Under the pieces are notes generated by a model, which saw nothing but the letters and a program-made list of their open reading frames with translations, was not told the origin of the DNA and did no database searches. DNA of 53,477 nucleotides, filler included, from Dirinaria sp. TL-2023a (Eukaryota), in NCBI GenBank assembly GCA_051941275.1. It is 2 parts of 2 records of this genome, joined end to end, with 100 filler letters (N's around TTAATTAATTAA, not from the genome) between each part and the next. Parts side by side here need not be neighbours in the genome. Positions count along the whole stretch, not along the records: positions 26,797 to 53,477 come from JAVEBF010000158.1; 1 more part is not named here. One strand, given 5' to 3'. The position numbers and the translations under genes are program-made. Of the stretch, positions 32,250 through 52,803 are shown in pieces; within the stretch, counting starts at the first letter, position 1, and each line of letters begins with the position of its first letter.

Positions 32250-32649
32250 TCCGCACCAGGCTCGTGCTGGCCTTCACCTTGCGACTAGACGGGAAGAACC
32301 ATTGCTGAAAGAGGTAGCAGGTACATGCGCGGGCCAAAATGCTCGACAGGTTTTCGTCATCGTGACACGATAAAAGCTAAGGTACTTACTACCAACATGT
32401 AGCTCAGATGCTGGCATCACTAAAGACCGTCTACCAGACCTCAGGCTTGGCGCCAAGAGTACATATTGGGTAAGGCTGAACTTCACTCTCATTCACAAGG
32501 TCAGCATCGCTCATCCCAGATCGGACCTTGGAGCCTTGCTGCGGCCTGATTTGCCCATGTGTAAGGCAGAAAACTCACTATCACTAACAAAACGCCAAGG
32601 ATGGTTTGACGGAAGCGGTTAGACTGTAGCTTCGTCAGCAGACCCGGGT

Positions 32650-34011: not shown

Positions 34012-35139
34012 TTATTGACTCTTGAGGAACTTGTATGCACTCTCAGCCGCGTCAATGGTCTGCTTTTCAAATCCAAGTAGGTCGCCCACGAGGAATATAT
34101 CATGAGGCACATTGGGCATCTCTAATCGCTCAATATTATTGCTGGGAATCTCTCTCATCTGCAAGTAGAACGCTTTTTGCTCGTCGAAAAGAACTTCAGC
34201 AGTGCTATATTGCATGAAGACTGGAACTTTCGTGGCAAATGGGTTATTTAGCGGAGACAAATACGGGTGATTTGCTTTCAGAAATGGCGGTCGATACGGG
34301 CGCGAACCCCATTGAAGGAGGGCGTGGGTGAGATAATCCGTCTGGCTGTTGCGGTGGCGTTCAACAGCATAAGGGTCTGCAGCAAGATCCAGCCAAGGAC
34401 TCCATAGAAGCATTGCGGAGGGCAGTGGCATAAGCGAAAAGTTGTTCTGTTCACCGAGGTATCTTAACAAAGCCAGTGCAAGATTGCCGCCAGCTGAGTC
34501 TCCAGAGATTATTATTCGAGAACTCGGGATCCCCAGCGCTAGCAAGTATTGATAGGAGGTAATGCTGTCTTGTAGAGCAGCGGGAAATCGACCTTTGAGT
34601 TTGGAAGAGAGCCGATATTGAGGACAAAAAACTGATCCATTAATTGCTTTGGCAAGGATCTCACGACCCCAGCCGCCCTCTTTAGGTCTAACACCACCAA
34701 TTACGTAGGCACCTCCATGAAAGTGTAAGATAATGTGCTTGTTCTTGTCGACATTAGACTCGTAGAGCTTTGGATACCACATGCCCCCAGTAGAAGCTGG
34801 CTGAATCCACTCATCGTTTACGACGCCTGAGTAGATTTCCGCTTTTGCGGGATTCATTACTACAAAACGTTCTTTCTCGGAACCAGGCTCTAGAGACTTC
34901 TGAGATTGATACTCTATGGTGCTTGCAAAAGATAACCAATGTTCAAGTAGTGCATTGGCCACTGCTTGATAATACGTCCATTGTGGATGTTGACGAATAT
35001 TTTTTGGTATAAATCGCAGAAGTAGGAACGTCAAACGGAAGGGAGCAGTAAGGATGAGGAATATGGTCCAAACCGCTTTCCAAGGCTGAACTGCGAGGAA
35101 AGGTTTTGTAGAATATTCTCGAGCATTAGTGACGTTCAT
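34012..35139 (-). CDS. GDXG/HSL-family esterase (Abhydrolase_3)
   Basis: HFHGGAY, YRLS...FPAALQD, GDSAGGNLA, SPWLDL, EVL, PHD; N-terminal hydrophobic anchor; intronless. Confidence 0.92.
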   Translation of the reverse strand: MNVTNAREYSTKPFLAVQPWKAVWTIFLILTAPFRLTFLLLRFIPKNIRQHPQWTYYQAVANALLEHWLSFASTIEYQSQKSLEPGSEKERFVVMNPAKAEIYSGVVNDEWIQPASTGGMWYPKLYESNVDKNKHIILHFHGGAYVIGGVRPKEGGWGREILAKAINGSVFCPQYRLSSKLKGRFPAALQDSITSYQYLLALGIPSSRIIISGDSAGGNLALALLRYLGEQNNFSLMPLPSAMLLWSPWLDLAADPYAVERHRNSQTDYLTHALLQWGSRPYRPPFLKANHPYLSPLNNPFATKVPVFMQYSTAEVLFDEQKAFYLQMREIPSNNIERLEMPNVPHDIFLVGDLLGFEKQTIDAAESAYKFLKSQ

Positions 35140-35941
35140 ATTGAAGACAGTTGATTGTTAATGCCCTTCGACCTTGATGATTTTCTGTACAGAGAGGTGA
35201 GTACTAGGTGAAGGTGTCCAACTGCATTCTGACAGCAATGCAGAATTTTGACGGGACTCACGTATTGACTTGTGAGGCAAGGACCCCTCCCCTCGGGAAT
35301 GCACCTCATGCCTGCGTTTACGCATGCCTAGGTGCATCACCTAGCTGAGTTTACCTCCGCGCGTCATTTGATAGGATGGCAATAGGAAGCCAGTCAATTT
35401 CCCACATTGTGACTTTTGCATATAAAGCGTTTCCTATTTATCAATTAACACCTGATTATGCTTGGATGCTGCATGAATATGCATCTTGAAAAGGACCTGG
35501 CTTTTAGGATATTGATAGAAGGGAAATAGAGGTGTTATGAGAAGGAGCTACGATGAGACACTTATGCGATGAACGGACATTTAGATGGTTTTCGAGGAGT
35601 TTCTAGCAGTCACCTCTCTAATAGTCTCACTGTTTTCTGGAACGTTATGGCGTGATGTAAGGCTTCTTGGAGAGGGGTTATCATTTTACTACTCGATTGG
35701 GCTTGGATGCTGCGTTATTGGTTATTCTGAAAGGGTGGTGTACGAGCGAAGTACGTGTAGGAGTATGCGCTTAGTGGGATCTCATTTTTTGTTTAAACCA
35801 CTACAAAATCTCTGACGATGTCAGTGGTGACGCAATCCAAATTTTGATCATGATCCAGAGACTCACTTGTTTTTTAGATTTGAATGGACGTGAGAAACCA
35901 TTTGCTACCACGTATATGCCTGGCCACCAGCATATTTCCTT

Positions 35942-37471
35942 TCATGACCAGCCCCTCATCTTCGCCTCTGCAGCCCTGCTATCCCGATTGGATTCGACGT
36001 TAATATCTATGGTCCTCCTGATCTCGGTCTGCGACTCCCGCTTCGGCGGTGCACGTAACTCCATGCTGTCACCTTCAATTTGGCCATAACTGCCAGCAGT
36101 AGCCAGAGTGGTGGAATAGTAGTCGCTATGCGAGTGCTTCGGTCGCCTCCTTCTGGCAGCTGCTTCCCCTTCGATATCTGAACCCGGAGTTAGCGAGTGG
36201 AGCTCACGGTATTTGGTGCGGTCGGTAGTGGCAGGGTGGGGAGTAGACAGACTGGGAGCACCGCCATTGGCCAGAGATGAGGGACTCCTTTTGAGGAGCA
36301 GGAAGATCGGACGGAGAGTAGGGATACAGGAGGCAATGATGATTGTTGCGGGTTCCACACTGAGACGAACAAGCTTGAGTCAGTAAAGTTTTTGTTTTAT
36401 TGAGTAGGTACCGCAGTAAGGCCAAGCAAGCTAAAAGAAATCAATGAGATTGACCATGTCATTATTTGGATGTTCGAGGTAGTCCCTGTTTGACACCCAT
36501 CAACTTCTGAAACGTTTACGGGCCAGGCAATCTTCGCTTACAGGTATAATCTGCATGCTCTTCGAGTTCGTGTAAAGTGGCGCATTTGTAAATGGCCACA
36601 GCACCGGCGCTAGCAAGAGCAGTCATGTCAACCACAGCTTATAGGCGTTTTATGGAGATTCAGCACACACATGACACCAATTCCCATAACGCAGCTTAAC
36701 CCTATTTTCTTCTTCATGTTGATTTTCAACTGGAATAGTACAGTTGTGGGGTATAACGCAAGATAGAAGTCGACTAATGCAGAATAGGCTGCAGTAGCTC
36801 AGTCAGTGAGTCATCTTGATTTTGTTTCCTGTAGGAGATTTTGTCCTACCGCCAGCAAAATAGGCGAAATTGACCAGAACTGAAGGGCTCCAACAAGCTG
36901 GCTTCAGCGATGGATCCCACAGCCCGGCGGCAGGCTTGCACTGCGCGTAGAAAAAGACAACGCACAGGGTTTGGAGGATGATGGAACCAATGCTGAGACA
37001 ATACATAAGAATACGCTGCCGTCTATCGATATTTAGGAGTCGCATCAGGAGAATTGCAACCGCTAGCTTTGGTAAGCCGACTGAAATGATGCCGGGGACA
37101 TAAGCGATGGTGTTGAACTTGATAGCATTTGAAAGGCTTTCGGGGGCCAGATAGTAGACATGTCGGCCACCACCAAAGGCTATAGAGACGGATTCGATGG
37201 CAGTGTAGCTGATACTAAAAAGCTATTGGATTGATATCGTCGGAAGATAAGCTATGTGGATACAAGGGTCTTGGGAAGGGAACCAGCGTCTCACCAGTGA
37301 TACAAGGATCCAAAAGTCGTCCCATCCAATGTTATGAGTCAGCGCCAGTCGTCCGATGATTCTTCCAGTCACAGCTAGGATGGCGATGGTCGTAAAAGTC
37401 CAATTGACGGCGTTGATAGTTCGACCTGCGTTCTGATCGCCCCCTGCTGGAGGCGAGGCAGATCCCACCAT
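35942..37471 (-). CDS. Second PTH11-like / fungal rhodopsin-domain membrane protein
   Basis: TGRIIGRL...IGWDDFWILVSL, GGGRHVYYL, LPKLAVAILLMRLL, QCKPAAGLWDP...CW, YSALVDFYLALYP, VEPATIIIASCIPTLRP; multiple introns. Confidence 0.88.
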
Positions 37472-39153
37472 ATCAGGAGCTAGCGAAAGGTATTCGAAAA
37501 CAAACGCTCGCTGCCTGTTCACCAAAATCAAATTCTCCGGACCAATGGCCACATGCGCAAATACACATGTTCAAACAAAAGGCCAGGGCAGCTTGTCTTA
37601 TATCTATCAGGCGTCCAGAAAAAATATAAGGCAGATGTCAACAAATCGAAGAGTTGCATACGGCAAGTTGCGTCTCGCTTTCCGCGACGGCTAGCGTTGT
37701 GAAGGTGTACTGGCAAACTCTTCGATTTGCAAGATGTTCTGTCACCTCAGCCGTATGCATCATGGGCGTGAAATAATTCCGATGTACTCTCCGCTTAGTG
37801 CATGATGCCTGAATAAAGGTCGAGATCTTGCATGCTCTTCTTGTGGGACCAGCCTACATCGACAAATCGAATTGATCATGGCACGGAGTCTACTCTGCCT
37901 GGTGCGGACATCGAATGACGAAGTTGAACGCCAAACATTGCTCCTAGCGCTAATTGTAATACTAGCACCATCGGCATAAGGCAACTAAGTACCGTAAGGT
38001 AGAAATTGCCAACAGACTTACTTATTCGAGAGATCTAGCAATCAGGTGTTGCGTCGGAAATTTCACTAGAGCATGTAAGTAGTCGTACGTGCCGTAGCTA
38101 CCCAACGGGCACGGTCCCCCGTTAGCCCATCAACGTCCATCTCATCAAGTGGCCCTTGTAAATGGGTCTTGGCGTGAGGGCGATGTATGGCGTCGACCTT
38201 CGTACGCTCGAGCATAAAGGACTGGGGTACGAGCGCCCTACCTAGTTTGTTAGACTTTCGATTGAAGATTAATGTACAGTACATAGTGCAACAGGTTGGG
38301 GGTGATTGTGGGTGAACACTGGCGCATACGCGAGGGGGATACCTTCCACTTACCTTACGTCGGGTGCTTCCATTGGACTTCCTCCTTACTTACTTTCCGG
38401 GGCCTAGTGGCGCGTCCCGAGGCCCGTTCTGCCGGCGTCTAATCCTACCTTACCTTTCACTCCCAAAGGCAGCCATGGAGCATGGCGCCACCTCTCCCAC
38501 GATCTGGGGAAAACGGCAATCTCTCCAAAGAGCCTTGAACCATTTTACCGGGGCCATCTTCAAAGTACAGACGAACGGTCGGCAGACTTCAAAGTTCGAG
38601 TATGTATGTATGAACAAGGAGTAGATCTAGATGCAGCCACAGACTGGATCATGGCTCGCCGATCACCCTACTTCGGTTGGCTGTCAAGAGTCAGGATGCA
38701 TGCAAAACGCCCACTCCGGTCGAGGTCGAAGCGGATTACACTGGCAGTACGACACCCTCATTTGACCGATCTCTCACATAGAGCGGCTCACTCCCTACTT
38801 CTCGAAGCTAGTGCCTCGCCTTGACGGGAAGCAACCTTCTCCATCCTCGTGTAACACGAGATAAGCAGCTTCTCTGAGGTAAGAGACTACAGATGTGCCG
38901 GCAACTTGATCCCACTCTCCACGCCGACGATGCGTGATTGGCGTTTCTGCCGTGCAGACGCTCGACGGGATGCAGCAGGAAGAAGAAAGCTGTCGCAAGC
39001 CGCTGACCAATTGTATCCGCTGTGCTGGATTGCCGAGCGCTTCTTGGGTTATGTGTGGATTGAGCGGTCATTGCATTTTCTGAAATTGGGTCTGCTCTGC
39101 GTATGTTTTTGCAGTTCTCTTTACATTCCTTTGCGATTCAGGCTTCTACCACG

Positions 39154-41122
39154 ATGAACTCTTCACACGAACATTCCGCTGCATCGATCAATGGCCTGAC
39201 CACCTTCCTTGCACTGTCAAGTCCTAGTGCCACGATCGCTCTGTATTTTGGCTTGGCAATTCTACCTTTGGTCATCCAGACGCTATACAATGCTTACGCA
39301 ACTCCGCTCCGTCGCGTACCTGGCCCATGGCTGGCCAAATTCACCCGTTTCTGGCTGTTCAGAGCCATCAACTCTCGAAAGTTCGAGAGCATCAATCTTG
39401 AATTGCATCGTAAATACGGCCCAGTTGTCCGCATCGCGCCCAACGAATACAGCATTGATGATCCCGAAGCTGCCAACATAATTTACCGACCCAGGGATCA
39501 GCTTGTCAAGGTCTGCAGCATATCTTGCTATTTACAGAATCCCGGGATTCAAATTTGTGGACTGACCCCGGTCTAGGCACCAAGATATTCTGCGTGGGGC
39601 CTGCCCACTGGAGAACCAAATATATTTACTGCTACAGATATCGAGCACGCGGCCAGCAGACGTCGCGAAGTAGTCGCTCTTTACTCGTTGAGTGCTTTGA
39701 GTCAAATTCAAGATAAGATTGATTTGAGCACAACGACTTTCCTTGAAAAAATGGCGTTTCTGAGTGCGAACAATGAGATTGTGGATTTATCTGAGTGGTT
39801 TCAATACTATGCCTTCGACGTCATTGGCGCTTTGACGGTCCTCTTTTCTCTCCCCAAATTCCTGCTGGATCATAAGCTGACATTCGTTCAGTTCGGTAAG
39901 CAATTCGGCTTCTTGCAAAGAGGCGCAGACATTGCGGAGATCATGAAAACGGTCCACAACTACGCACGATACGGTGGGGTGGTGGGAGTATTCAGTGAGT
40001 GGCATCCTTGGGTATTCCGTCTCTTGAACGCTATGGCGCCTGGAGGCGCTGTCGGATATGCTTATATAGCCAAATTTACATCGCAAGCCATCGCAGAATG
40101 GAATGCGAGACCTGAAGACGAGAAGTCTGTAAATGCACAAAGAAGCGAAAGTGGAACTGTTCTGCATTCCGATTACCTTAGTACGTGGCTTGCAAAACAT
40201 AATGAACATCCGGAAGAGTTCACCATCAGCGACATCTATTATCATGCGTTCCCTCACGTTGCGGCTGGTGCAGAAACAACGGCAATATCTTTGGTTGCCA
40301 GCATATACTTCCTGCTGAGACACCCTAAGGTATTTACCAGACTACGCCAAGAGCTGGACCAACAGTGGAGTGATACGCCCAGCGAAAGAATATCGATGAA
40401 GGAGGTACAAGACTTACCATACCTCCAAGCCGTGATTAAAGAAGTATTGAGGATATTTCCTCCGACTGGCTTGCCCCTACCTCGCATTGTGCCCAAAGGA
40501 GGTCTTGCTCTTGCAGGACATTTCTTCCCAGCAGGAGTACGTATCTCTTAGCCTCGTGGCGAATGGGAATATGCAAAAGCATTCCTCTACGTCTACACTT
40601 TTCTTCGTTGGAACGGATACGAGATTATCGGTTCTAATTGCACCACATTCACAGAGTATCGTCGGCATTAACAGTTGGGTTGCCAACTTCAACGGCTCGG
40701 TCTTCGGTCCCGATCCGGACTCGTTCCGCCCCGAACGCTGGCTTGAGGATGAAGCCTCCAGCTTCCGCATGGATCAATACTTCTTCACGGTGAGCTTCTG
40801 CCTTTTTCCCGGAATCTGAAACCACCGTACAAACACCTTGTCACCTCTTCACCCTGTCCATAATAAAGCAGATGCGGCACACAAGAACATTGTACTGATA
40901 CTTGTCTCGAATCAAAAGTATGGACGTGGCCCCCGTATCTGCGGGGGTAAGACTATCCCTGCTCTAGAACTCAGCAAAGCGATACCTGAATTGTTGTTGC
41001 GGTACGATATCGAATTCGCAGATCCGAAGAAGGACTGGACGGTTCACAATGACTGGTTCGTGCGGCAAACTGATTTTCGTGTCCGCTTGAAGTTAAGGAG
41101 AGACACTCAAAGCCAGCTTTGA
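39154..41122 (+). CDS. Cytochrome P450 monooxygenase
   Basis: TM anchor, PLRRVPGPWLA, LHRKYGPVVRIAPNE, YYAFDVIG, I-helix AGAETT, ExxR (KEVLR), FRPERW, heme loop YGRGPRICGG; about four introns. Confidence 0.94.
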
Positions 41123-43146
41123 TATTGGCGAACAAAACTTGAGGGATAAGACCCACTTTTTTGGGATTCTACTGTGTTTAGTTGCTACCAGAGGGATGTA
41201 TCTGCTTTTAACCGCGAGCAAACTGTAGGGCTGTATCAAATGACATTGAAAGAAACAATATCGATAATGTAAGTGGAACTTGAATACTGTACGTAGCAGC
41301 TTTACAAACATCACCCACAGCATGCACTTACATTAGAGGAGACCAGCCAAAAAATTCGACAATCTCCAAGAGACAGCAATGGAAGTCCCCTAAGGATGCT
41401 GATCATCACCACAAAAAGCAGACCTTGTGTTCATGTCGTTTGTAAGATAAGACCAGTTCAACCGGAGGATTGTATCAAGTTGATCGTCGGAAGGCTCTGG
41501 ATTACCTTATTTGAAAGGGGTCATGAATCCAATGCGGAGTCCATGAAACTCGCGACACACCAAGCAATGAAAAGCTTCGATCCACATATGAAATAGAACC
41601 CAACCGCAGCATAAGACCCATTGACCTCTTTTGGTCATTCAATCGTGAACATGGCCTTGATCAGTGCAAACTTTAATGATTAGCTTTACGAGACGCGTGG
41701 GATCGATATCGTGGGGTAGCCTTGTTTTAGGAGGTTGGATCCCGATGGAGGTTGGAAGCCGGGGGGGGAGCTGCGCGCCGGAAGGACGTTTCTCGCACGG
41801 CCCACGATCCGGCTTATTGGAATGAAGGAAGGTCAGTGGAGCTAAAATTTCGTGGCAGCTGCAGTGTGATATCTCTGATCAGATCTTGTGGGGGTGCCAG
41901 CATGTCTGCTTTTAGCCACATCAAAACGAGGCGGGCACGGAGTGGAAGAATCGCTTGCGCTTTCCGACTACGGCGCTGCGAATGTTAACAGAATGGGCCG
42001 TTTGTGAAGTTGCCTTGCTCTGCGAGAGTAGCAGTGATGATGCATTGTCAGTGCGTCCTATGTTCTGCTGTAACATGATCTAGCCGTTCAACGATTTACA
42101 CACCACCTTAGTGCTACCGCTTGGAGATCGCCGGTGCAACCACCCAACAAGATCGCCTACCTTACCTAGAAGAACCCTGATCTCACTAGCTACAGTAGGA
42201 AGGGCTCACCTGGTTTCACCCAAAGCCCGCTACCAATCAACCAGTCATGCGACTGGAAACCGCAGCTGCGACCGACGAAGGACCCCTGTCGGCAAACTCT
42301 GCAGCTTGCACACACCTTTTTCCACCCATTAATTCGACCAGTACAGATATTCCTGAATTGAATATTCCATCTCTTTGCATAGATTGAAGTAGATTGGTAC
42401 TACAGTTCTTCATGGCAACACCGTACGGCGTTAAACATAGACTGCTATCTCCGTAAAATAGAGCGACTGCTGCAGGTGGGTGTCCTACCTGAGATTCACA
42501 GTACGACGCTACCTCGCGTACAGTATATGTGGAAGTTGGTATTCTCTTCCATTTGGACCTTGAGATACTGTAGCTACAAAGCCTTAACGACAGATGATAA
42601 CGTCTTTTCTTTTCTTTAGAAGAGGTTATAATAATTGACCCTCTATCAGCCTCTGCTGTAGGCCTGACTTTTTCTTACAAGCTCGGCCGGGGCCCATGGT
42701 TGCATACTGCTTCTATCAGCGGCAGATACTCTCCGTGGAACGATGAGGCTTTCGCTCTGTCCTTAAGAAAAGCTCTTGAAGTGGAATACTTAGACTCTCC
42801 GCTCTTGGCCCTGTTGATGCAACAAAGCCCTGTGGGACGTCGAGCAATGTCCCCACGGAGTACTCGTACGAAGGTGCGTAATATAGCTCTCATTGGGTGG
42901 TCCTTGCAAAAGTAGTTCTATAAATTCATTGCGAATATCTCAGATTGCGTGCTTAGACCATTTCAAAGATGTCCGCGTGTTCCAGAGCATGCCTTCTACA
43001 CAAAACATTTGGCGTCTCCTATATTACAGATTTAGCGTTGTTAAGGCCCCGCTTCCTTACTATGGTATTGCCGGGGACCCAGAGAACGCTGACCAATTGG
43101 TCTGTGATACGATGAGTCTTATACTTCCTATGACTGCTCACTGCCC

Positions 43147-43758
43147 TCATGGTACAATGTAACCCTTGATTGCCACAGTCTTCCGGTCTTTGCTTGGAGT
43201 TACAGAAGCGATGATGAACTCATCCATCAGTGGTGCCTCTTTCCCACCAACCTCGAGAATCTGGAAATAAATGAAGATCAGCCGGGTTTTGTCCTAATAT
43301 ATGACTTCTTGCCAGCTTGCAAATGCGGCGCAAAGAGCTACTCACAATCCTGGTGTTTTGGTGGGCCAGGCTGCCAACTCCAGCCTCTTGAACTAGGAAG
43401 GACGAGTTGTCTGAAGTAGTCCCATACAGAATGATTTGCGGAACAGAAACAGTACCATTCTCGAAGACTTGAGGATATGCGACACCGCCCTCAATGGTGG
43501 CATTGATAACGCCAGAAAGTGTTCCTCCAATGATCGGTTCGACTATCATGTTTTAGTCTTGCAAGAACTGTAGCGATGTGCGGAAAACTCACTGTTCCGG
43601 GACCCTCCGGGCACGGTGATACTTCGAAGAGGCTTACCCAAACGAATGGTACCAATAACCGCAAGCTCGAGACCAAGAGGACATTCGGCGCAAGATCCCA
43701 GGGCCGGGACCGCCAAAGCAAGCAAAAGACCTCGGATTAAGACTTGGAAGAGCTGCAT
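43147..43758 (-). CDS. Small secreted protein, DUF3237/UPF0311-like
   Basis: Signal peptide MQLFQVLIRGLLLALAVPALG; three exons: ...ITVPGGSRN | EPIIGGTLSGVINATIEGGVAYP...LYGTTSDNSSFLVQEAGVG...QNTRI | ILEVGG...IKGYIVP*. Family assigned from pattern only. Confidence 0.72.
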
Positions 43759-45364
43759 CGTTGTGTGCTCTGATCAACGTGGGAGCGTCCAATGCTAGAA
43801 AGTCTTCAATGGTTTCTGAAATTCTGGAGCAAGTTCTCGAGAAGCGGTTTGTGCGAGCTGATACCAGAAAAGAAAGGGTACCCGTTTACTTATAAGATAC
43901 GTAAAAATGGACGCCGCACCGACAATGTCAGCATATCCCCTAGAAGCAAGCTACATGTAGCTCGTTATTTCCAAGGGCCTAAGATTGTGGAGACCGACAC
44001 ATATTGCTACTTGGATATGAGCGGCTCAGATGCTTGAAGCTAGGCTACTTTAGGATGCAACCTGCGAAGCTATACGTGCCAAGACTCACGATAGTTACGC
44101 TATTTTAAACCTACGAGCGGCGATTGAGCCTCTCATCCAAGTCTTCCTCAATGCGAGCTTAGTACGAACATTGCCGGTCCAGTGCGGTATTTATTTCACT
44201 CTAATCCTGGCGCGCAATCAAGTTAGACGTCACCAAGAATGGTCATAATCGGCGACTGCGAGGCTGATCCAGAAAAGCCAAAGTTAAACCGAGCACACAG
44301 ACCTTTAAGCACAGTAGCATAATTTACTTGTGTGCAGTTGCCACTATGATCCATTGTTATCCGCTTACATGCATAATACTACCAGCGGGCGCATCAGAGA
44401 AAATGCGTTGGTGATAAGTGAGCAATTCAAACCCTCGCTGTTTCGAGCTACTATCAATCGTCATTTTCTTTGTTCTGATAGAGATTCGGTAGGAATTTCC
44501 GGTGTCTGCTACATCTGACCCTTCGAAGGCTTCAGTGCTACTAGCTGGAGAGATCAATGATCGGCTTGACTGCATCAAACGAGCGCTTCGGCTGCTGTGC
44601 GGCTCAATGGCTTGGGTCTGGTTGCTAGTTCGTCCTCATATTAAAGAGAGCCGTCTTTCTGCCTACGATGAATCTTGTCCTGAGTCATGTCCCGGAAACG
44701 CTTGGAAGGGTAATTACACTTCTATGGCTTGTTAATCTTCTTTGCGGAATCTCAATTTGCCCGCTAAAGCGTCTCCGTAAATACGGACCACTCGCCCCAA
44801 TCGAGATGAAATATGCTTACTGTAGGTGGCAGTGGCAGCTTCTTCTCGGTTCCTTTTGATCCAAATACAAGTGACTTGATCAAGATGTATATTGTTATTC
44901 GCCGCATTGCTTTGGGTGCATGTCGCAGCATAGCATTAAGGTACGTACCAAACAATGATTACTAGAGTGGCGATTGCATGTTCTATAATATCCTCCGCCA
45001 ACCCCAACAATGATTGCCATAGGTTTCCGCGGGCATGGCTGACCCTCTATCCCCTGGCATTCCTACCAATTACCCAAGACGATGTCTAGAGAAGGTAAAA
45101 CCGAAGTAGACCCCGCAGAGTGGTCACGATTATCCGCGGCCTTGAGAATGTGGTTCTGTGGCTTGGTGGCACTCGACCGCTGAGACCCGTTGCGCCAAAC
45201 TCCGGTTCATTGGAAGACGGAAATAGTGAAGATATCTTTATATCTAGTCGGTCCCTCTCAGAGGAAAACAAATACTGTATTCTGTGGGAATATCTCCCAA
45301 AGCTCAATCACCTCTCTCAAAATCCACCAATCTATCGCTCCTATCGCACCTTTGTATTACAACA

Positions 45365-45850
45365 ATGCGTTTCCTCGCCGTCGCCCCCTTTCTGGGCCTC
45401 ATACCCAGCATGCTTGCCACCCCGTCTCCCGCAAGCTACAGCCCCTCGAGCTCGCTTCCAGCTGGCCCCTACTGCCCTCCCCATCACGTCAATCCCAGCG
45501 AGCAAGAGGCCATCTTCTTCGACTTCATCGACAAGCTCTACGTACAGCAGAACGCCACGGACGCCTATCTCACCTACGTGTCGCCCGACTACATCAATCA
45601 CAGCCCATACGCGCCTCAAGGCCGCGCCGCCGCGATCAGCTTCCTGTCCTTCCTCATCCCTTCCCTCAACCGCACCATCCTGCACGAGACATTCGACAAT
45701 GATGTGGGCTTGGTCCATCTCAAAGTGGATAGCAAGCCGCTGCTGGCCCTCGTGGATCTGTTCCGCTTGAATGGAAGCTGTGTTGTCGAGCATTGGGATG
45801 TGAACCAGGCGCTGCCTGCTAATGCGACGAATCCTATTGCTCTGTTTTGA
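45365..45850 (+). CDS. Secreted SnoaL-like (NTF2-fold) protein
   Basis: Signal peptide; YVSPDYINHSP...GRAAA...VHLK...VDLFRLNGSCVVEHWDV; strong C-ending codon bias. Confidence 0.88.
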   Translation: MRFLAVAPFLGLIPSMLATPSPASYSPSSSLPAGPYCPPHHVNPSEQEAIFFDFIDKLYVQQNATDAYLTYVSPDYINHSPYAPQGRAAAISFLSFLIPSLNRTILHETFDNDVGLVHLKVDSKPLLALVDLFRLNGSCVVEHWDVNQALPANATNPIALF

Positions 45851-47440
45851 ACGTCAGCTGGAGAGCGGTTCAAGAGCATCTGCTACTTCGAGCGTCCACA
45901 AAAAAAAGCGTAGGATAGTCTTGCATTAGGATTCCTACTTCACGCTACAACCCAGCGATCTACGCTCGCCTCGTTCGTACTGCTTGGCTTTACACTTTGG
46001 GCCGCGCAACAGAACAAGATATATAGCAATAAGCAATCTTAATCTTCCCGTAACCCCTCCATGTTCTCCACCGCATGTGACTCGCTCTCGTTGTAAAAAT
46101 CACTCCCTAAACTTCTCTGCATTCCTGTCCCTAAAACCCCCTATGCTGCTCCAGCCGTGCGCTCCTTCCTTTTTTTTTCTCATGTTAATTCCCATAGTTC
46201 CAAATGTTTCGAGGAGTCAAAGACACTTAAGAAAACTTAAGAATGAGACCCAAAGACGCCCGTTCTGAAAATGATGCTAGTAGAAAAGTACACAACTAAT
46301 GAAGTCACATCCCGTACTTATCTCTGCGACTTCAGAAGGGAACGGCTACTCCTACCTTCTCCTGACTATTTCCGTTCTTCTTTCCTCCTGCCATACCTAC
46401 TCGTATCCCATAACCTTCGACATACCTTAATTCGGTTTCATCGGAACTCCATCCACTCATCCGCGGTTTCATATCATTCTTTACTTGAATTAGACAACCT
46501 GAGCCTTCTTCCTTGGAGCCTCTCCCCTGCCCTGAATCTTTTTTTTATTTTTGGAAGGGCTTAACGCACGCATTTGTAGCTCCATAAACTCAAGTTAGAT
46601 TGCTCCTACAAGTTCTTTTCATCACTACAATAGAACGGAACCTTCTTTTTTGGCTCGTCTCTACGCGAAAAACCTATTATTATGAAAGTAGGCATGTGGA
46701 ATTTCCATCTGGCGGAAAACAGGTGCCAAGATTTGGTTGACAAGACTGCATGCCAAGATGGGCTGAATTAGGCAGGGAGGTTCGGATAAGGTACCTTAGG
46801 TACCTTAGGCTTTGTCAGATCCACTACATACCTTACCTTAGCTTCGGGCAATCGCATGGAACGTTTCCAGCATGAAGACGTTGGGCTTCGTTCCGGATCG
46901 TGTTTGCCTCGTGGCAAACTTGCTTAAGCCAGATATATATGTTTGCTTCTCGGTACTACTGTATGTCCATTGCTCTGCGCAGCTGTGGCAGTTTCACTCC
47001 TCGATGGGCTTTCAGCCATATGTTCTCTAACGAGAGATGACATATAATGCATTGTTCTCTGCAGTTTCTCTCGCCTTCTCAGGCTTCGCCTCAAGTCCAA
47101 CGATATCTTCATTCGATGTCGCATTCGGTATCGTGTTTCGAAGGCATTCTTTTTACCTCCCCATCTCCCTACTATAGGTAGCGTCTTCATGGGTGGGGGG
47201 AGTGATTGCTGCTGGACCTAGCAAATTTTTGCGAATCTCTGCTTGTGTGGTGAGTAGTTGCCTCTGGTGGCTCACTCGTTGCTTCTGGTCGGTGTCATGC
47301 TTATTTTTCGGAAATTGTGAAGATTTCACAAAGCGCCAAGAACCATATGTTTAGGAATCTTATGCATGTAAGATCTTACCTGACAGCTCTATTCTAGGAT
47401 CGTAATCTGCACCGCAGTGCTTTCTCAGGTAGGTAGAGGT

Positions 47441-48796
47441 TTATCTCTGGTTCTCAAACTCCAGACCGCTCATTTGTCGCAGTGCGCCGTAGATCCCCGA
47501 CACATCTCCCTTTGCACCGGCATGGTCTTTCACCAAATCCATGTGCTTACGTGCAGCCTGATAAGCCGGTATGGTGACACCGGAAGCTGAGGCCAAGCCT
47601 GAAACTTCTTCAGCTAGGTGCCTTGCCATGTCGATGGCAACAACCGGCTGGTCTCGTCAGCTTCACGACGGAGTAACGCTTGAGTCGCTCAGACAGACCT
47701 CATCTCTACTATAATAATCGCCACTGATCATCCGCCTCGAGTATAGCGCATGCGGCCCCGGGAAAATGGCTTCGATGAATTTGTGCAAGTTCTCCACCCC
47801 GAGTCCGGCCTTTTCTGCAAGGATTAGCCCTTCTCCGACTGTCTCAATCATGTTGACGATGAAGACGTTTCCGATGACCTTCAGCAGCGATGCTTTACTA
47901 TGTGGTTGATCGCTGAAGTCAATGACCCCTCGACCGATTCTATGAGAAATTTGTCAGCCTTAGCTGACCCACCCCAAAGAACCACAAAACTCACACTCCG
48001 GTGCAGTAAGGTAAGACCTTGGCGACCAAATCTGCTCGACCAGCAGGAATGCAAGTCAGCATTCCTCTTTCCGCCATGCTTGGTTCTCCGAAAACTATTA
48101 CATCCCATAGTCAGTCATCGTACGCTCCCGTGTCTCCTTCGCTATTCCAAATACTATCATTGGCATCTTGATCAAAGGTCAATCTGCAGGTTGCCGCTCA
48201 ACCTTTGAGCAGTTGGAAGGGGAAAAAATGAGAAGCTAACTATGACCCACTGACCGACCTCTAAGGACTAAACGAGTGCGACACGAAGGATACAGGAGGT
48301 CTGTGGACGGGTGCTAGATTGACTGGCCATTGCACGAAACATTGATCTGGTAACGCTGGACCTACCAGGCATGGTGACAAGCCCTGCGCCCCGAGACTCC
48401 ACCATACTGGCCAATTTATCACTCGTCTCTGGTTGGGTGGTTGAGCAGCTGACGAAGAGTTTCCCCTTGACCTCGTGCTTCAGTATCTCTGTAAAGGTCT
48501 CGAAGACAGCGCTGTCATCGGTCAGGCAGGAGAAGATGATGTCGGCATCTGCAACGGCGTCGACGACCGAGTAACACACAACACAGTTGCCTAAACGGTT
48601 GGACAGTTCGCTCGCCCGACTAACTGTGCGGTTGTACAGTATCAACGGCGAGGAAAGGTTCCCTTTTCGCACCAGGTTCCCACACATGGCCTAGTACACC
48701 ACTATTAGTCAGGACATGGATTCAACAATGCGCGCACTTGATTGGAAGCACCTGGCCCATATTGCCCAGCCCCAGATAAGCAAGGCCTGGTGCCAT
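47441..48796 (-). CDS. NAD(P)-dependent beta-hydroxyacid dehydrogenase (6PGD/3-hydroxyisobutyrate DH family)
   Basis: YLGLGNMGQ|AMCGNL (Rossmann GxGxxG), YNRT, DIIFSCL, CSTTQP, MP|VFGEP, LK|VIGNVF, E-G-x-x-LAEKAGLG, GALRQMSGLEFEN; several introns. Confidence 0.9.
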
Positions 48797-49900
48797 TTCC
48801 TACTAGATGCTCCCGAACCTTAGCTGTCAGACTCAGATCCGGCTATTGCCAAGCACCAATCAACTTGCTTGCTCTGATCAGCGATGTCAACCTTTGAGAA
48901 AGTGCTTTGCTGCACCATAAAATCGAAGATTTTTGGCCAAAGAAACCTGCTGTAGATGCTGCGAAAACACTTCCATTTAGCTTTACGGACAAGGCAGCAA
49001 CTGAAGTATATTCACACACACGTCTCTGTTCAAAGGATTCATTGACGCTGTGTTGAATGCAAAACCTCCCAAGGCCTACCAGCCCATATCACGTGATTCT
49101 TTCTGTGAGTCAGCATTGTGCGTAGACCGCTCGTTTGCTTGCACAAAAGCGGCCCACTTTCTGATAAGCGCTAGTCCAGATTGAACTCTCTACCCTATAG
49201 GAACATTGTTAAGGCATCTAACTAACTAGGTACTCTAGTTTATCGTAAATATCATAAGAGATACTACATACTACGCTGATATCTGCCGGCTTAGATCAGA
49301 TGCAGTGAAATGTTGTAGTATCTGACACTGCTGAAGTGGGTTCACTGTCTATTGATTTCAAGCCAGTGAAGTGGGAGCAGCTGAGAGACTCACTATTCAA
49401 GACAACACTTGACTGGTCAGAGACCATACTCTGGGTTTTCATTGTTAAGATCCTACGTTCTTTCGAATATCCACACCTGCAGGAGAGGCCGAGACTCTCA
49501 GTCAGACAGTCTTCATTCTGTGCGAAGCTGACACAGATGAATATCACTGCTGTAAGTCTAGGAGCTGACGCGTATCTGAACGTTCGAGAAAGTTGATAAA
49601 CTCTGTCAACAGCTGCACAGACTCTACACTCTTATCTTCTTCGTCATTGTTTTCCCAGGATAAAGCTGGCCCATTTAGCAATTTCGTTACTGCCAACTTC
49701 TCAACACTTGACGCCTTCTCTCGATATCTCCAGAATTGGCCTTTAAGTCGCAAAAATGAAGCTGGTAGAAGAAAAGTACGTATTTTGATTTCTTTACATG
49801 GAGTCGAAGACACTTTCCACTAGATACCCCTTGTTTCCTGCAGATCCTCCGATAACTTTGTGAAAATGCAATATACGCGCACACTTCAAGGACAGCAAAG

Positions 49901-52803
49901 ATGCTACATCGGACATCGAATTCGATGTAGTATTTGCAAGATCATAAGCTGATGTATATAGTGCGTTTGGTTTCAGTGAAACGAGTCCAGATCATAAAGC
50001 GAAACCCAAGAATCTTTATCAGCTACTTGCAAAGGCGGCGAGAGATTCAGCAGATCGGGGTATTCTCTATTACTCGCCTGGAAACGTCGATCGAGTCGAC
50101 GCAACCATTTCCTACAGCGAGCTTTTGCGGATTGCACATAAGCACGCAGCACTCCTTCCCCCTATCAAAGGCGTGGATACTTCCATAGTTCTTCTTCACT
50201 TCGACAACCATAGAGATGGAATAGAGTGGTTCTGGTCCGCCATCACAGCGGGATACACGCCAGTCATCTCCACTCCCTTTACCAATGACCTGGAACAGAG
50301 GAAAAAACACATTTCACACCTCCAGACTCTCTTGAAAGATCCGTTGATCCTGACTACCGAAAAATTAGTCCCTGATTTTCTAGGCATGGAAGGCCTCAAG
50401 CTAGAGACTATTGAGAAGATTCGAAAAGGAAGTTCGGTGACGGACGGAGTGTCCCGCCATGATCCGACGACTGCTGGCTCTTCGAAGCATCCCGAGGCTG
50501 TTGCCGTTTTGATGCTTACGTCTGGCTCTACAGGCAATGCCAAAGCTGTCTGCCTCCGTCATGGTCAACTATTACTATCGATTCAGGGGAAATCGAAGCA
50601 CCATGGTACGGATAGATCAGATACATTTCTCAACTGGATCGGCCTCGATCACGTTGCCAATCTCACTGAGACACATCTGCATGCTATGCTGCATGCCGCA
50701 GACCAGATACATGTCAAAGCAGCAGATTTACTGCTGGATCCTCGGATGTTCTTGACGCTCATCTCAAAACACAAAGTCACACATTCTTTTGCACCCAACT
50801 TCTTTCTCGCAAGCTTACGAGCTGCACTCGAGAAGCCTGGACCCTTCAAATCGACTAGCGAACCAGATCTTTCGCAATTCAGGATCCTAATTTCAGGAGG
50901 AGAAGCTAATGTGGTCGAGACGGCGAGTGCATTAACCAATCTCCTTCGTAAATATAATCTACCAACCGACACCGAAGTAGTTCGACCAGGTTTTGGAATG
51001 ACAGAAACCTGTGCAGGCTCCATCTACAGCAAAAAGTGCCCTTCTTATGATGTTGCCCACAACCTCGAGTTCAACTCCTTGGGAACCTGTATACCTGGTC
51101 TCAATATGCGCATCACGACCGAGGATGGTGTTGCTGCTGGACCCAATGAAGTTGGTGGCTTGGAGCTCTCTGGAGAAGTTCTGTTTCGGGAGTACTACAA
51201 CAATCCAAAAGCGACAGAAGAGGCTTTTACATCTGACGGCTGGTTCATTACGGGCGACAGAGCTCTGGTTGACACAAATGGCTACTTGTGCTTGACTGGC
51301 AGGGCCAAAGAGAGCATCATCATCAACGGCGTCAAATACTTTCCGCACGAACTCGAATCGGCTTTGGAGAACGCGACTATTGAAGGTGTAACACCATCTT
51401 ACACCGTCGTCTTTCCACACCGGCCCAAGGGGTCCCAGACCGAAGTATTGTGCGTAGTTTATCTCCCGACCTACCGACCGGACGACATATTGGCTCGCGT
51501 TAGTGCAAACGATGTCATCTCGCGTGTGTGTGTTATGCAGTCTGGCGTCAAGCCTTACCAGATCATACCACTTGAAGCACATCTGCTGCTCAAATCATCC
51601 TTGGGAAAGCTCTCGCGAACGAAGATACGTACAGCATTTGAGAGTGGTGCCTACTCGGCTTATCAGAAAGTCAATAATGAAATTTTATTGAGTTACCGCG
51701 AGGCCCACCGAGAAGCCCCATCGAATAGCGCCGAAGCCAGAATCTTGACACTGTATGCCGAACTCTTCGACCTTCCAGAGGACGATATTGGGGTCAACAC
51801 AAGTTTGTTTGAGATGGGTGTCAGCTCTGTTGAGATCATCAAGCTGAAGACAAGGATCGAAAATGAACTAGAGCTTGAGGACGAGATTCCTATCATAACC
51901 ATGATGACAAACCCGACTATTCGCAATCTAGCAGCTGCGCTCAAGAGGCTGAAATCACCCCAAAAATACTCTCCTGTTGTGACTCTGCAAGCAAGTGGTA
52001 CCAAGACACCGCTGTGGCTCGTACATCCTGGCGTCGGCGAGGTACTCGTCTTTCTGAACCTTGCAAAATACATCGTTGACCGACCCGTCTACGCCCTACG
52101 GGCTCGAGGGTTTGATGTGCGCGAGAGCTACTTCAATGATATTCCCGAGGTCATCAGCACGTACCACGCCGCTATCAAAGAAGTGCAACCCTCAGGACCT
52201 TATGCCATCGCGGGTTACTCTTACGGTTCCATGATCGCGTTCGAGACGACCAAGGTTCTCGAGAGCAAAGGCGACAAGGTGCAGTTCCTAGGAGCCTTCA
52301 ACTTGCCACCGCACATCAAGTTCCGCATGCGCCAGCTCGATTGGGTAGAGGTGATCCTCAACCTTTCTTACTTCTTGGATCTCATTCCAGAAGACTACGC
52401 CCACGAGATCTCGCCCGACATGCACAAGCTAGCAACACACGAGGAAGTTCTCGATTTCATCATCTCCAAGGCACCTCCAACGCGGATGGCCGAAATGGCT
52501 CTCGACAAGCCGAAACTGACCAACTGGGCCGATCTCGCTTACCGCATGCAAGCTATCGCGCAAGACTACGATCCGTCCGGCATGGTCACCAGCATGGACG
52601 TGTTTTACGCCATCCCTTTGGCGGCGGTCGCGCAGAACAAGCAGCAATGGCGCGAGCAGCATCTCAACAAGTGGAGCGATTTCGTGGCCACGCCGCCCAA
52701 ATTCCATGAGGTTGAGGGGGCGCACTATACCATGATCAGCCCTACACACGTCTTCACATTCCAGAAGACTCTCAGAGCTGCGCTCCATGCGAGAGGGTTG
52801 TGA
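49901..52803 (+). CDS. NRPS-like A-T-TE enzyme (aromatic alpha-keto-acid dimerising synthetase); start uncertain
   Basis: A domain: LTSGSTGNAK, WIGLDHVA, FAPNFF, SGGEA, GFGMTETCAG, WFITGD, GRAKE, SSLGKLSR. T domain: LFEMGVSS. TE: HPGVGE, GYSYG, GAHYTM. The frame is open from 49948 without an early ATG; a first exon at 49901-49926 with intron 49927-49976 would restore the frame. Confidence 0.95.

What the first reader, a model, noticed from the sequence alone, without database searches (positions are those of the whole stretch)
49901..52803. A-T-TE NRPS-like enzyme with a quinone-synthetase signature: candidate polyporic acid/atromentin synthetase
Seen: A-T-TE architecture with no condensation domain. 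The A domain has DHVA, with Val where amino-acid-activating A domains have the amine-binding Asp. My hand-read pocket is roughly V-A-E-F-S-G-G-A-S-K. The TE reads GYSYG...GAFNLPPHIK...GAHYTM, i.e. Ser-Asn-His (Asn within 52291-52320). Established: such enzymes dimerise aryl-pyruvates. Quinone formers (TdiA, AtrA, GreA) carry Asn in the triad, whereas furanone formers such as RalA carry Asp. Terphenylquinones are the accepted precursors of pulvinic-acid pigments. Inference: this enzyme makes polyporic acid or atromentin. If the host is a lichen fungus, it could be an entry enzyme for pulvinic acid-type pigments (vulpinic acid, calycin).
Basis: partly seen in the sequence, partly recalled or inferred. 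Interest (0 to 1): 0.75.

Follow-up and report, generated by a model that had tools for sequence, protein, structure and literature searches.

The report
Lichen polyporic-acid-type quinone synthetase gene
This is an intact gene from a lichen fungus (Dirinaria) for a three-domain enzyme that most likely joins two phenylpyruvate molecules into the pigment precursor polyporic acid; it is a new lichen member of a known enzyme family, and its link to lichen pulvinic-acid pigments is unproven.

Summary
One open frame (49948-52803, +) encodes adenylation, carrier and thioesterase domains with no condensation domain.

The protein is 100% identical to a hypothetical protein of Dirinaria sp. TL-2023a, a Caliciaceae lichen fungus. 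Its closest characterised relative is AcyN of Ascocoryne sarcoides, a proven polyporic acid synthetase, at 65.8% identity overall and 71.9% in the thioesterase. The two share a strongly supported clade.

Specificity-code position 5 is Ile, the phenylpyruvate state, not the states reported for 4-hydroxyphenylpyruvate. The thioesterase has Asn at the triad acid position like AcyN, whereas butyrolactone-forming BtyA has Asp. Polyporic acid is therefore favoured over atromentin.

Caveats:
- The ancestral in-frame start is lost and a TAA follows it, so a spliced upstream exon must supply the ATG.
- No DAHP synthase, transcription factor or ring-cleaving oxygenase lies nearby.
- The pulvinic-acid idea has no support here.

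Verdict: a new member of a known kind, of moderate interest.

The parts
49756..49775 (+). Candidate exon 1 (ATG AAG CTG GTA GAA GAA AA), the start used in the public annotation (MKLVEEN...)
   Evidence: P0001 begins MKLVEEN|ETSPDHK. ATG at 49756 is followed by GTACGT at 49776. This is a prediction only; no transcript was seen.
49776..49976 (+). Annotated intron, 201 nt (GTACGT ... GCTGATG branch-like ... CAG). An alternative acceptor AG lies at 49960-49961, and an alternative short intron spans 49927-49976 after ATG 49901
   Evidence: Sequence read. All variants keep the frame. Local introns in the neighbouring gene are about 51-61 nt, with one of about 270 nt, and have CTGAC branch sites.
49915..49947 (+). 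Relic of the ancestral unspliced N-terminus: ATC where relatives have the start Met, and TAA (49945-49947) where P0002 has Cys
   Evidence: The window frame reads IEFDVVFARS*ADVYSAFGFSETSPDHK. P0002 reads MDEDVVLARSCADFPSATGFSGTSPDRK. P0002-P0007 all start at the aligned Met.
49977..52803 (+). Main exon of the NRPS-like gene, stop included; encodes residues 7(part)-948 of P0001
   Evidence: The translation of 49978-52803 equals P0001 residues 8-948 plus the stop. P0001 is a 100% match.
50035..51198 (+). Adenylation domain, Pfam AMP-binding core. The C-terminal subdomain continues to about 51690 and includes Lys551 (51607-51609)
   Evidence: Pfam PF00501, E 7.3e-35. Best solved matches are McyG A-PCP 4R0M (2.2e-80) and 6ULX/6ULW. 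The motifs LTSGSTGNAK, GFGMTE, TGD and GKLSR can be read in P0001.
50647..50658 (+). DHVA; Val233 is code position 1 (keto-acid mark), Ala234 is position 2
   Evidence: Val occupies this column in 171 of 186 aligned homologues. [quoted passage not shown]
50890..50892 (+). Ile312, code position 5 in the published mapping (the phenylpyruvate state)
   Evidence: The rule is taken from PMC10316625, passages and the legend of Fig. S1.
51739..51942 (+). Thiolation (carrier) domain; GVSS with the presumed phosphopantetheine Ser at 51823-51828
   Evidence: Pfam PF00550, E 1.7e-11. Motif located. Which of the two Ser carries the arm is inferred.
52009..52800 (+). Thioesterase domain with Ser755 (52219-52221), Asn782 (52300-52302) and His923 (52723-52725)
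   Evidence: Pfam PF00975, E 2.4e-24. Coordinates. Asn aligns with Asp of 7CRN. The domain is 71.9% identical to the AcyN thioesterase.
47441..48796 (-). Context only: intact five-exon beta-hydroxyacid (HIBADH-like) dehydrogenase, transcribed divergently from the synthetase; membership in a pathway is not shown
   Evidence: Pfam NAD_binding_2 and NAD_binding_11. The exons are mapped against P0121, with 75-82% identity per exon. The family is widespread, with 462 hits at E<=1e-10.
45365..45850 (+). Context only: 161-aa SnoaL/NTF2-like protein with a hydrophobic N-terminus; membership in a pathway is not shown
   Evidence: Weak Pfam SnoaL_2 match (E 0.0092, below the cut-off). PDB 3G0K at E 1.7e-13. 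Atlas look-alikes are SnoaL-like clusters scoring 0.97.

Best explanation
The gene encodes a non-reducing NRPS-like synthetase (A-T-TE) of the lichen fungus Dirinaria sp. It most likely acts as a polyporic acid synthetase.

Proposed mechanism:
1. The adenylation domain activates phenylpyruvate with ATP. Val at code position 1 replaces the amine-binding Asp, and Ile sits at position 5.
2. It loads the acyl group on the phosphopantetheine arm of the carrier domain.
3. One unit is passed to Ser755 of the thioesterase.
4. The thioesterase (Ser755-Asn782-His923) joins two units head to tail by Claisen/Dieckmann-type condensations and releases 2,5-diphenyl-3,6-dihydroxy-1,4-benzoquinone.

Shown here: the architecture, the motifs, the residue states and the kinship with AcyN. 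Inferred: the substrate, the product and the order of steps, which are taken from published work on AcyN and basidiomycete quinone synthetases.

The start codon must come from a small spliced upstream exon, because the ancestral unspliced start is destroyed in this genome.
For: Architecture and host
- A-T-TE with no C domain.
- The protein is 100% identical to a Dirinaria sp. TL-2023a protein, lineage Caliciaceae.

Kinship with AcyN
- AcyN (P0021) is the best named characterised hit. Identity is 65.8% over 918 aligned positions: A 62.9%, T 66.3%, TE 71.9%.
- AcyN makes only polyporic acid in Aspergillus oryzae and in vitro (PMC9047271: abstract, introduction, the section on expression of the gene cluster, and discussion).
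- In an IQ-TREE quick tree of 58 rows, which I chose from those held, the window sits in a 15-row clade with AcyN at SH-aLRT 99.
- FastTree on the A domain alone and on the TE domain alone keeps the window and AcyN in one clade of 23 of 186 rows and 22 of 185 rows. Local support is 0.56 and 0.92.

Residue states
- Code position 5 is Ile in the window and in all 25 rows P0001-P0025. BtyA, a 4-hydroxyphenylpyruvate user, has Leu.
- The published rule is Ile/Val for phenylpyruvate; Asn (basidiomycetes) or Phe/Ala/Leu (ascomycetes) for 4-hydroxyphenylpyruvate; and Asp for indolepyruvate (PMC10316625).
- The triad acid position is Asn in the window and in AcyN, and Asp in BtyA.

No sign of decay
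- The window deviates at only 2 of 336 sites that are invariant in the other 24 clade members. The range across members is 0-17.
- Its end branch is 0.083, against 0.065 for its sister.
Against: - No product, substrate or transcript was observed.
- The main frame has no usable ATG. The ancestral Met is ATC and a TAA follows it, so expression depends on an unverified splice.
- Position 5 relaxes specificity but does not strictly fix it. CorA I298N kept its specificity (PMC10316625).
- MicA and PngA also use phenylpyruvate but make a furanone and a dioxolanone (Table S2). The A domain therefore cannot settle the product.
- Asp-type paralogues lie as close as 58% identity (P0056), and the triad rule rests here on few characterised anchors.
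- The genes co-expressed with acyN, a DAHP synthase and a zinc-finger transcription factor, were not found in the 50 kb upstream.
- From recall, no terphenylquinone is known from Dirinaria. I found no paper bearing on this.
Confidence: 0.7

Rival explanations
1. It is an atromentin synthetase: the same chemistry, but with 4-hydroxyphenylpyruvate as substrate.
For: It belongs to the same family and has the same Asn-type thioesterase. Purified AcyN makes traces of atromentin from 4-hydroxyphenylpyruvate alone (PMC9047271 discussion). The pocket string differs from VAEFSGGACK, found in 15 of 186 rows, by one residue. From recall, VAEFSGGACK is the atromentin-synthetase code.
Against: Position 5 is Ile, not Asn or Phe/Ala/Leu. 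The protein lies in the AcyN clade. In AcyN, 4-hydroxyphenylpyruvate behaves more like an inhibitor.
Confidence: 0.1
2. It dimerises phenylpyruvate into a non-quinone core (furanone, butyrolactone or dioxolanone), as MicA or PngA do.
For: Product type is set by the thioesterase and cannot be read with certainty from sequence (review statement in PMC8403587). The triad acid position is Asp in 42 of 186 homologues, spread over several clades. Some are 53-58% identical to the window protein.
Against: The thioesterase is 71.9% identical to that of AcyN and shares its Asn. The TE-only tree groups it with AcyN. All 25 rows P0001-P0025 have Asn.
Confidence: 0.07
3. The gene is silent or freshly inactivated: loss of the ancestral start plus an in-frame TAA has cut off translation.
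For: ATC replaces the start Met, and TAA replaces a Cys codon of the closest relative. Six relatives (P0002-P0007) keep the unspliced start. The annotated rescue exon is only 20 nt and has no homologue among the N-termini seen.
Against: There are 941 codons without a stop. All core motifs are kept. The window has only 2 private changes at 336 clade-invariant sites. Donor, branch and acceptor signals are plausible. AcyN starts only 4 residues before the conserved NLY motif, so the lost extension is dispensable.
Confidence: 0.13
4. It is the entry enzyme of a pulvinic-acid pathway (vulpinic acid, calycin) in this lichen.
For: Reviews place lichen pulvinic acids and terphenylquinones in the shikimate pathway. 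Homologues occur in Pseudocyphellaria aurata and Thelocarpon, which from recall contain pulvinic acid derivatives.
Against: Those homologues sit in a different clade from the window's. No ring-cleaving oxygenase or O-methyltransferase lies beside the gene. The window's own clade is Caliciaceae-like plus Teloschistaceae, which from recall are not known for pulvinic acids. No chemistry of the host was available.
Confidence: 0.07

Closest known systems
AcyN, polyporic acid synthetase of Ascocoryne sarcoides (P9WES4; PMC9047271)
   Same: A-T-TE architecture. 65.8% identity overall and 71.9% in the thioesterase. The two are identical at the DHVA, FAPNFF, ISGGEA, GMTETCAGSIY, GYSYGS, NLPPH and GAHYTM motifs, and share a clade.
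   Different: The class differs (Lecanoromycetes versus Leotiomycetes). The acyN neighbours, a DAHP synthase and a zinc-finger regulator, are absent upstream here. The start needs an intron here. The product is untested.
AlfA of Allantophomopsis lycopodina (polyporic acid synthetase of the allantofuranone cluster; PMC12105029)
   Same: AlfA is reported as 69.6% identical to AcyN and makes polyporic acid. Its cluster holds a 306-aa dehydrogenase, AlfC, that reductively dehydrates polyporic acid. A dehydrogenase of similar length lies beside the window's gene.
   Different: The AlfA and AlfC sequences could not be fetched, so no direct comparison was made. The window lacks the alf-type ring-cleaving dioxygenase, O-methyltransferase, DAHP synthase and regulator.
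Basidiomycete polyporic acid synthetases CorA, HapA1, HapA2, PpaA1 (PMC10316625)
   Same: They have the same domain logic, the same product, and an aliphatic residue at code position 5.
   Different: Their sequences were not compared here. PpaA1 carries an extra C-terminal dioxygenase domain, which the window protein lacks.
Atromentin synthetases AtrA, InvA1/2/5, GreA, NPS3
   Same: Same family and same condensation chemistry. The NPS3 thioesterase motif quoted in a preprint (GLINIPPH) matches the window's GAFNLPPH around the Asn.
   Different: They use 4-hydroxyphenylpyruvate. Code position 5 is Asn in the basidiomycete enzymes, against Ile here. Their sequences were not fetched.
BtyA, butyrolactone IIa synthetase of Aspergillus terreus (Q0CU19; P0303)
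   Same: A-T-TE architecture, keto-acid activation, Ser and His of the thioesterase.
   Different: 44.1% identity. Leu at position 5. Asp at the triad acid position (LDLPPF). Distant in the tree.

Membership tests
Non-reducing NRPS-like aryl-alpha-keto-acid dimerising synthetases (A-T-TE) | Adenylation, thiolation and thioesterase domains in that order, with no condensation domain | tested here: met
   Pfam hits in that order; no C domain among the 4 families at E<=0.01.
Non-reducing NRPS-like aryl-alpha-keto-acid dimerising synthetases (A-T-TE) | Val, not Asp, at specificity-code position 1 | tested here: met
   Val233 in DHVA. Val in 171 of 186 aligned homologues. The rule is quoted in PMC10316625.
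Non-reducing NRPS-like aryl-alpha-keto-acid dimerising synthetases (A-T-TE) | Intact catalytic residues: carrier Ser, thioesterase Ser and His, adenylation Lys | tested here: met
   GVSS, Ser755, His923 and Lys551 located. In the aligned homologues, Ser is present in 174 of 186 and His in 182 of 186.
Terphenylquinone (quinone) synthetases | Asn at the acid position of the thioesterase triad | tested here: met
   Asn782 aligns with Asp of 7CRN. AcyN has Asn and BtyA has Asp. The discriminating power of the rule was checked on these anchors only.
Terphenylquinone (quinone) synthetases | Groups with experimentally proven quinone synthetases in A-domain and TE-domain trees | tested here: met
   With AcyN: whole-protein clade at SH-aLRT 99; A-only and TE-only trees. 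TdiA, AtrA, GreA and InvA could not be included.
Terphenylquinone (quinone) synthetases | Releases a 2,5-diaryl-3,6-dihydroxybenzoquinone | not testable with these tools
   Needs expression and LC-MS.
Polyporic acid synthetases (phenylpyruvate-specific) | Aliphatic Ile or Val at code position 5 | tested here: met
   Ile312. The rule comes from PMC10316625.
Atromentin synthetases | Asn (basidiomycetes) or Phe/Ala/Leu (ascomycetes) at code position 5 | tested here: not met
   Ile312.
acyN/alf-type gene cluster | Synthetase clustered with a DAHP synthase and a zinc-finger transcription factor | tested here: not met
   No such Pfam family was found in six-frame ORFs of the upstream 50 kb or the last 674 bp. 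Anything further downstream lies beyond the window.
Pulvinic acid pathway | Host makes pulvinic acid derivatives, and an oxidative ring-cleaving step is encoded with the synthetase | tested here: inconclusive
   No oxygenase lies beside the gene. The nearest are a P450 about 9 kb upstream and an AlkB-like 2OG oxygenase 28 kb away. Host chemistry is unknown to me, and no pathway gene is defined in print in the searches.

The most novel reading that the evidence does not exclude
The Caliciales/Teloschistales clade to which this gene belongs would be the first genetic handle on shikimate-derived lichen pigments. Its conservation in lichens not known for terphenylquinones would point to hidden terphenyl chemistry. 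In that reading, the divergently transcribed HIBADH-like dehydrogenase, perhaps with the nearby SnoaL/NTF2-like protein, reductively dehydrates polyporic acid. That would be an analogue of fungal AlfC/UcdB or bacterial EchB/EchC, and would lead to p-terphenyls rather than pulvinic acids.
Probability: 0.1. Interest if true: 0.65.

Novelty: new member of a known kind. Interest (0 to 1): 0.4.

Why it matters
Reviews state that lichens make terphenylquinones and pulvinic acid pigments from the shikimate pathway: polyporic acid in Sticta coronata, thelephoric acid in Lobaria isidiosa. In my searches of the held library I found no paper that assigns a lichen gene to these compounds. Of the papers returned I read only the listings and a few passages.

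This gene and its orthologues give a concrete, easily testable candidate. One intron-poor coding sequence expressed in Aspergillus should give a coloured product.

If it does make polyporic acid, two questions follow. What do Dirinaria and the Teloschistaceae do with it? And is the second lichen clade of homologues (Thelocarpon, Lobaria, Pseudocyphellaria) the one tied to pulvinic acids? The enzyme family and its chemistry are already well described, so the finding extends a known kind to a new host group.

Tried and rejected
1. The searches list only the best 120-150 proteins. Three exact look-ups of 30 representatives yielded one characterised enzyme, BtyA. The full comparator phylogeny therefore stayed undone.

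2. Testing whether the neighbouring dehydrogenase is an AlfC/UcdB homologue.
- An exon query found 15 relatives.
- A profile of 13 relatives found 462 proteins at E<=1e-10. The 120 listed come from many fungal classes, and the 116 that were not profile members are 47-57% identical to P0121. None is named AlfC or UcdB or comes from Aspergillus ustus.
- This looks like a widely conserved enzyme, so I do not claim it as a tailoring gene.
- The family of AlfC is not stated in the paper or its supplement. My link rests on recalling that its best Swiss-Prot hit is HIBADH-related.

3. PDB search for TerB/TerC-like partners. The dehydrogenase homologue hits only generic beta-hydroxyacid dehydrogenases. 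The SnoaL-like protein hits only 3G0K. The paper on TerB/TerC (PMC8751757) is not held.

4. Literature on Dirinaria chemistry and on 'pyxiferin', a Pyxine pigment I recall as a terphenylquinone. No paper holds the word, so this stays recall.

5. The Pfam scan of 41.2-47.4 kb found nothing at E<=0.01. The SnoaL-like ORF was recognised only by eye and then.

6. Long Peltigerales homologues were checked for a fused dioxygenase as in PpaA1. None was found. They carry an unrecognised insertion inside the adenylation domain instead.

7. Synteny in relatives could not be examined.

8. Structure prediction was not run, because the tool gives no coordinates with which to measure the triad.
Full report
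**What is in the sequence**

A single open frame runs from 49948 to 52803 on the + strand, 951 codons from stop to stop. Pfam finds AMP-binding (E 7.3e-35), PP-binding (1.7e-11) and Thioesterase (2.4e-24) in that order. No condensation domain is reported.

Positions are in the numbering of P0001:

| Feature | Residue(s) | Window nt |
|---|---|---|
| DHVA | 231-234 | 50647-50658 |
| Ser of GYSYG | 755 | 52219-52221 |
| GAFNLPPHIK | includes Asn782 (52300-52302) | 52291-52320 |
| His of GAHYTM | 923 | 52723-52725 |

The core adenylation motifs (LTSGSTGNAK, GFGMTE, TGD, GKLSR) and the carrier motif GVSS are intact.

**Host and relatives**

The translation is 100% identical over its whole length to 'hypothetical protein Q9191_001809' of Dirinaria sp. 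TL-2023a. This is a lichen-forming member of the Caliciaceae, Lecanoromycetes.

The search scored 8000 candidates, of which 2296 had E<=0.001. The best 120 are listed:
- unnamed records at 76-88% identity;
- Teloschistaceae genomes (Usnochroma, Fulgogasparrea, Seirophora, Wetmoreana, Pyrenodesmia, Caloplaca) at 71-75%;
- AcyN of Ascocoryne sarcoides at 65%;
- Helotiales fungi at 63-64%;
- many other lichens (Thelocarpon, Sclerophora, Lobaria, Pseudocyphellaria aurata, Usnea, Lepraria) at 51-62%.

A scan of 1.84 billion representatives found 3914 proteins at E<=1e-30. The family is large.

**Closest characterised enzyme**

AcyN was shown to produce only polyporic acid from phenylpyruvate, both by expression in Aspergillus oryzae and with purified protein. 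It made traces of atromentin when given 4-hydroxyphenylpyruvate alone. I read the abstract, the introduction, the section on expression of the gene cluster, and the discussion of PMC9047271.

Identity of the window protein to AcyN is 65.8% (604 of 918 positions): 62.9% in the adenylation part, 66.3% in the carrier and 71.9% in the thioesterase.

AlfA of Allantophomopsis lycopodina, reported as 69.6% identical to AcyN, also makes polyporic acid (PMC12105029: abstract, passages and the section on elucidation of the pathway). I could not fetch its sequence.

**Trees**

- I aligned all held homologues of 850-1400 residues, 186 of the 268 held at that point, and ran FastTree.
- I then ran IQ-TREE (quick search, LG+C20+F+G4) on 58 rows of my own choosing: named lichens, Helotiales, Asp-type paralogues, BtyA, and bacterial and basidiomycete rows.
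- The window protein sits in a 10-row lichen clade (SH-aLRT 100), inside a 15-row clade with AcyN, Phlyctema, Phialocephala and Mollisia (SH-aLRT 99).
- BtyA lies elsewhere. Quick-search stars deserve some caution, and several distant rows have long branches.
- FastTree on the adenylation columns alone keeps the window and AcyN in one clade of 23 of 186 rows, local support 0.56. On the thioesterase columns alone the clade is 22 of 185 rows, support 0.92.

**Substrate**

[quoted passage not shown] The window has Val233, as do 171 of 186 aligned homologues.

The same paper links code position 5 (GrsA Ile299) to substrate (passages, legend of Fig. S1):
- Ile or Val goes with phenylpyruvate.
- Asn (basidiomycetes) or Phe/Ala/Leu (ascomycetes) goes with 4-hydroxyphenylpyruvate.
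- Asp goes with indolepyruvate.

The paper shows by mutation that this position relaxes specificity without fully fixing it.

In the window this position is Ile312 (LISGGE), as in AcyN and in all 25 rows P0001-P0025. BtyA has Leu.

As a family signature it is reproduced in 97 of 186 rows, but the informative residue is the Ile. Among solved structures the best matches to the adenylation part are McyG (4R0M, 2.2e-80) and 6ULX/6ULW. From recall, the latter are keto-acid-selecting domains.

**Product type**

The Asn lies 27 residues after the nucleophile Ser. It aligns with an Asp of the best-matching solved thioesterase, 7CRN. That this Asp is the triad acid there is my recall.
- AcyN has Asn at this position.
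- BtyA (butyrolactone IIa) has Asp.
- A preprint quotes GLINIPPH as the stretch of atromentin synthetase NPS3 that holds a triad residue (passages only).
- A review states that ring type depends on the triad, citing van Dijk 2016 and Geib 2019, which I did not see.

Among the 186 aligned rows the position is Asn in 142 and Asp in 42. Among the 120 best hits it is Asn in 112 and Asp in 8, one of which is a truncated record.

Asp-type rows form several clades, some only 53-58% identical to the window protein. The state therefore switches easily, and the rule is verified here on few anchors.

The second His that the preprint's text seems to mark aligns with PTH in the window. It is Asn in AcyN, so I take GAHYTM as the catalytic His.

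No solved structure of a thioesterase from this enzyme family turned up. The best match covers only the first 118 residues.

**The start of the gene**

The main frame has a TAA at 49945-49947 and no ATG before the adenylation core.

Six close relatives (P0002-P0007) read straight through from a Met. P0002 reads MDEDVVLARSCADFPSATGFSGTSPDRK, and the window reads IEFDVVFARS*ADVYSAFGFSETSPDHK. The Met codon is ATC here, and the codon at the Cys position of P0002 is TAA.

Three splicing solutions keep the frame:
- The public annotation uses ATG 49756 plus 20 nt, a GTACGT donor at 49776 and the CAG acceptor at 49974-49976.
- An earlier acceptor lies at 49960-49961.

Introns of the neighbouring gene are about 51-61 nt, with one of about 270 nt, and have CTGAC branch sites. 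A 201-nt intron is therefore not out of line.

AcyN starts only 4 residues before the conserved NLY motif, so the lost extension is dispensable. The coding region shows no decay. It has 2 private changes at 336 sites invariant in the other 24 clade members, against a range of 0-17 across members. No transcript was available.

**Surroundings**

Six-frame ORFs were scanned against Pfam.
- Upstream and divergent lies an intact five-exon beta-hydroxyacid dehydrogenase (48796..47441, minus strand). Its exons are 75-82% identical to a Heterodermia speciosa protein.
- Further upstream lies a 161-aa SnoaL/NTF2-like protein (45365..45850).
- A cytochrome P450 lies at about 39.1-41.1 kb.
- Beyond that come an alpha/beta hydrolase, a short-chain dehydrogenase fragment, an amidase and housekeeping genes (Pex16, RNase HII, Mif2).
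- No DAHP synthase, zinc-finger regulator, aminotransferase, ring-cleaving dioxygenase or nearby O-methyltransferase was found.
- Only 674 bp follow the stop codon.

The dehydrogenase is tempting because AlfC, a 306-aa 'dehydrogenase', reductively dehydrates polyporic acid. However, its family is very widely conserved. A profile search found 462 hits at E<=1e-10. The 120 listed include the profile's own members; the other 116 are 47-57% identical to P0121 and come from many fungal classes. None is named AlfC or UcdB. I leave it as a lead.

**Comparison with what is known, and novelty**

It fails the position-5 test for atromentin synthetases. It lacks the cluster partners of acyN and alfA.

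I found no paper assigning a lichen gene to terphenylquinones or pulvinic acids:
- 'polyporic acid' + lichen + NRPS-like: 0 papers.
- 'pulvinic acid' + lichen + 'gene cluster': 18 papers; I saw the listing and read passages of two.
- 'vulpinic acid' + atromentin + lichen: 0 papers.
- 'lichen-forming' + atromentin: 1 unrelated review.
- 'polyporic acid' + lichen + genome: 2 reviews.

The library lacks most subscription journals.

The pulvinic-acid idea remains conjecture. The window's clade is separate from the clade holding Thelocarpon, Lobaria and Pseudocyphellaria. The host's chemistry is unknown to me.

**Verdict**

This is a real, well-read feature. It is a new lichen member of a known enzyme kind, with an unusual but probably survivable 5' end. 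Interest is moderate.

Noticed in passing
window 49915-49947: The N-terminal extension that six close relatives translate without an intron is broken here. The aligned start codon is ATC and an in-frame TAA follows, so this stretch now lies inside the annotated intron.
   Followed up: partly
window 47441-48796 (-): An intact five-exon HIBADH-like dehydrogenase is transcribed divergently from the synthetase, about 1 kb between the starts. Its length matches AlfC, the polyporic acid reductive dehydratase, but the family is widespread in fungi and no link was shown.
   Followed up: partly
window 45365-45850 (+): A single-exon 161-aa SnoaL/NTF2-like protein with a hydrophobic, signal-like N-terminus. 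It was missed by the Pfam scan at E<=0.01. Its best solved match is 3G0K (E 1.7e-13).
   Followed up: partly
window 41200-45300 and 45900-47400: About 5.6 kb around the SnoaL-like gene has no ORF with a Pfam match and no marked drop in G+C. It is either non-coding or holds genes of unknown family.
   Followed up: no
P0039, P0040, P0044, P0045, P0047 (Peltigerales-type homologues, including Pseudocyphellaria aurata) and P0153: These homologues are 1266-1377 residues long. The AMP-binding match starts only at profile position 131-153, about 490-600 residues into the protein, so extra sequence of a few hundred residues lies in or before the adenylation domain. It has no Pfam match. It could be a real insertion or a shared gene-model error.
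   Followed up: partly
tree; rows: Lichen homologues fall into at least two clades. The window's clade (Caliciaceae-like plus Teloschistaceae) groups with Helotiales enzymes including AcyN. Usnea, Thelocarpon, Lobaria and both Letrouitia (Teloschistales) copies form another clade. This suggests old paralogy or gene transfer; it was not tested.
   Followed up: no
P0052, P0056, P0060, P0102, P0109, P0115, P0117 (unnamed records): These close paralogues, 53-57% identical to the window protein, carry Asp instead of Asn at the thioesterase triad position. They cluster with Sordaria and Phyllosticta proteins and are possible non-quinone formers.
   Followed up: partly
P0217, P0226, P0232, P0237, P0249, P0256, P0261 (distant representatives): A distant clade has Cys instead of Ser as the thioesterase nucleophile and Ser instead of Val at code position 1. 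Cys occupies the nucleophile column in 8 of 186 rows.
   Followed up: no
P0198 (Trametes punicea): This homologue has an A-T-TE architecture plus a C-terminal 2OG-Fe(II) dioxygenase (DIOX_N and 2OG-FeII_Oxy). It is the same four-domain layout as the published PpaA1 of Psilocybe cubensis.
   Followed up: no
window 18101-18475 (+) and 36806-37222 (-): Two ORFs carry the fungal rhodopsin domain (PF20684). An amidase (30597-32273, -), an alpha/beta hydrolase (34015-35157, -) and a P450 (about 39064-41119, +) lie between them and the synthetase. None is tied to it.
   Followed up: no
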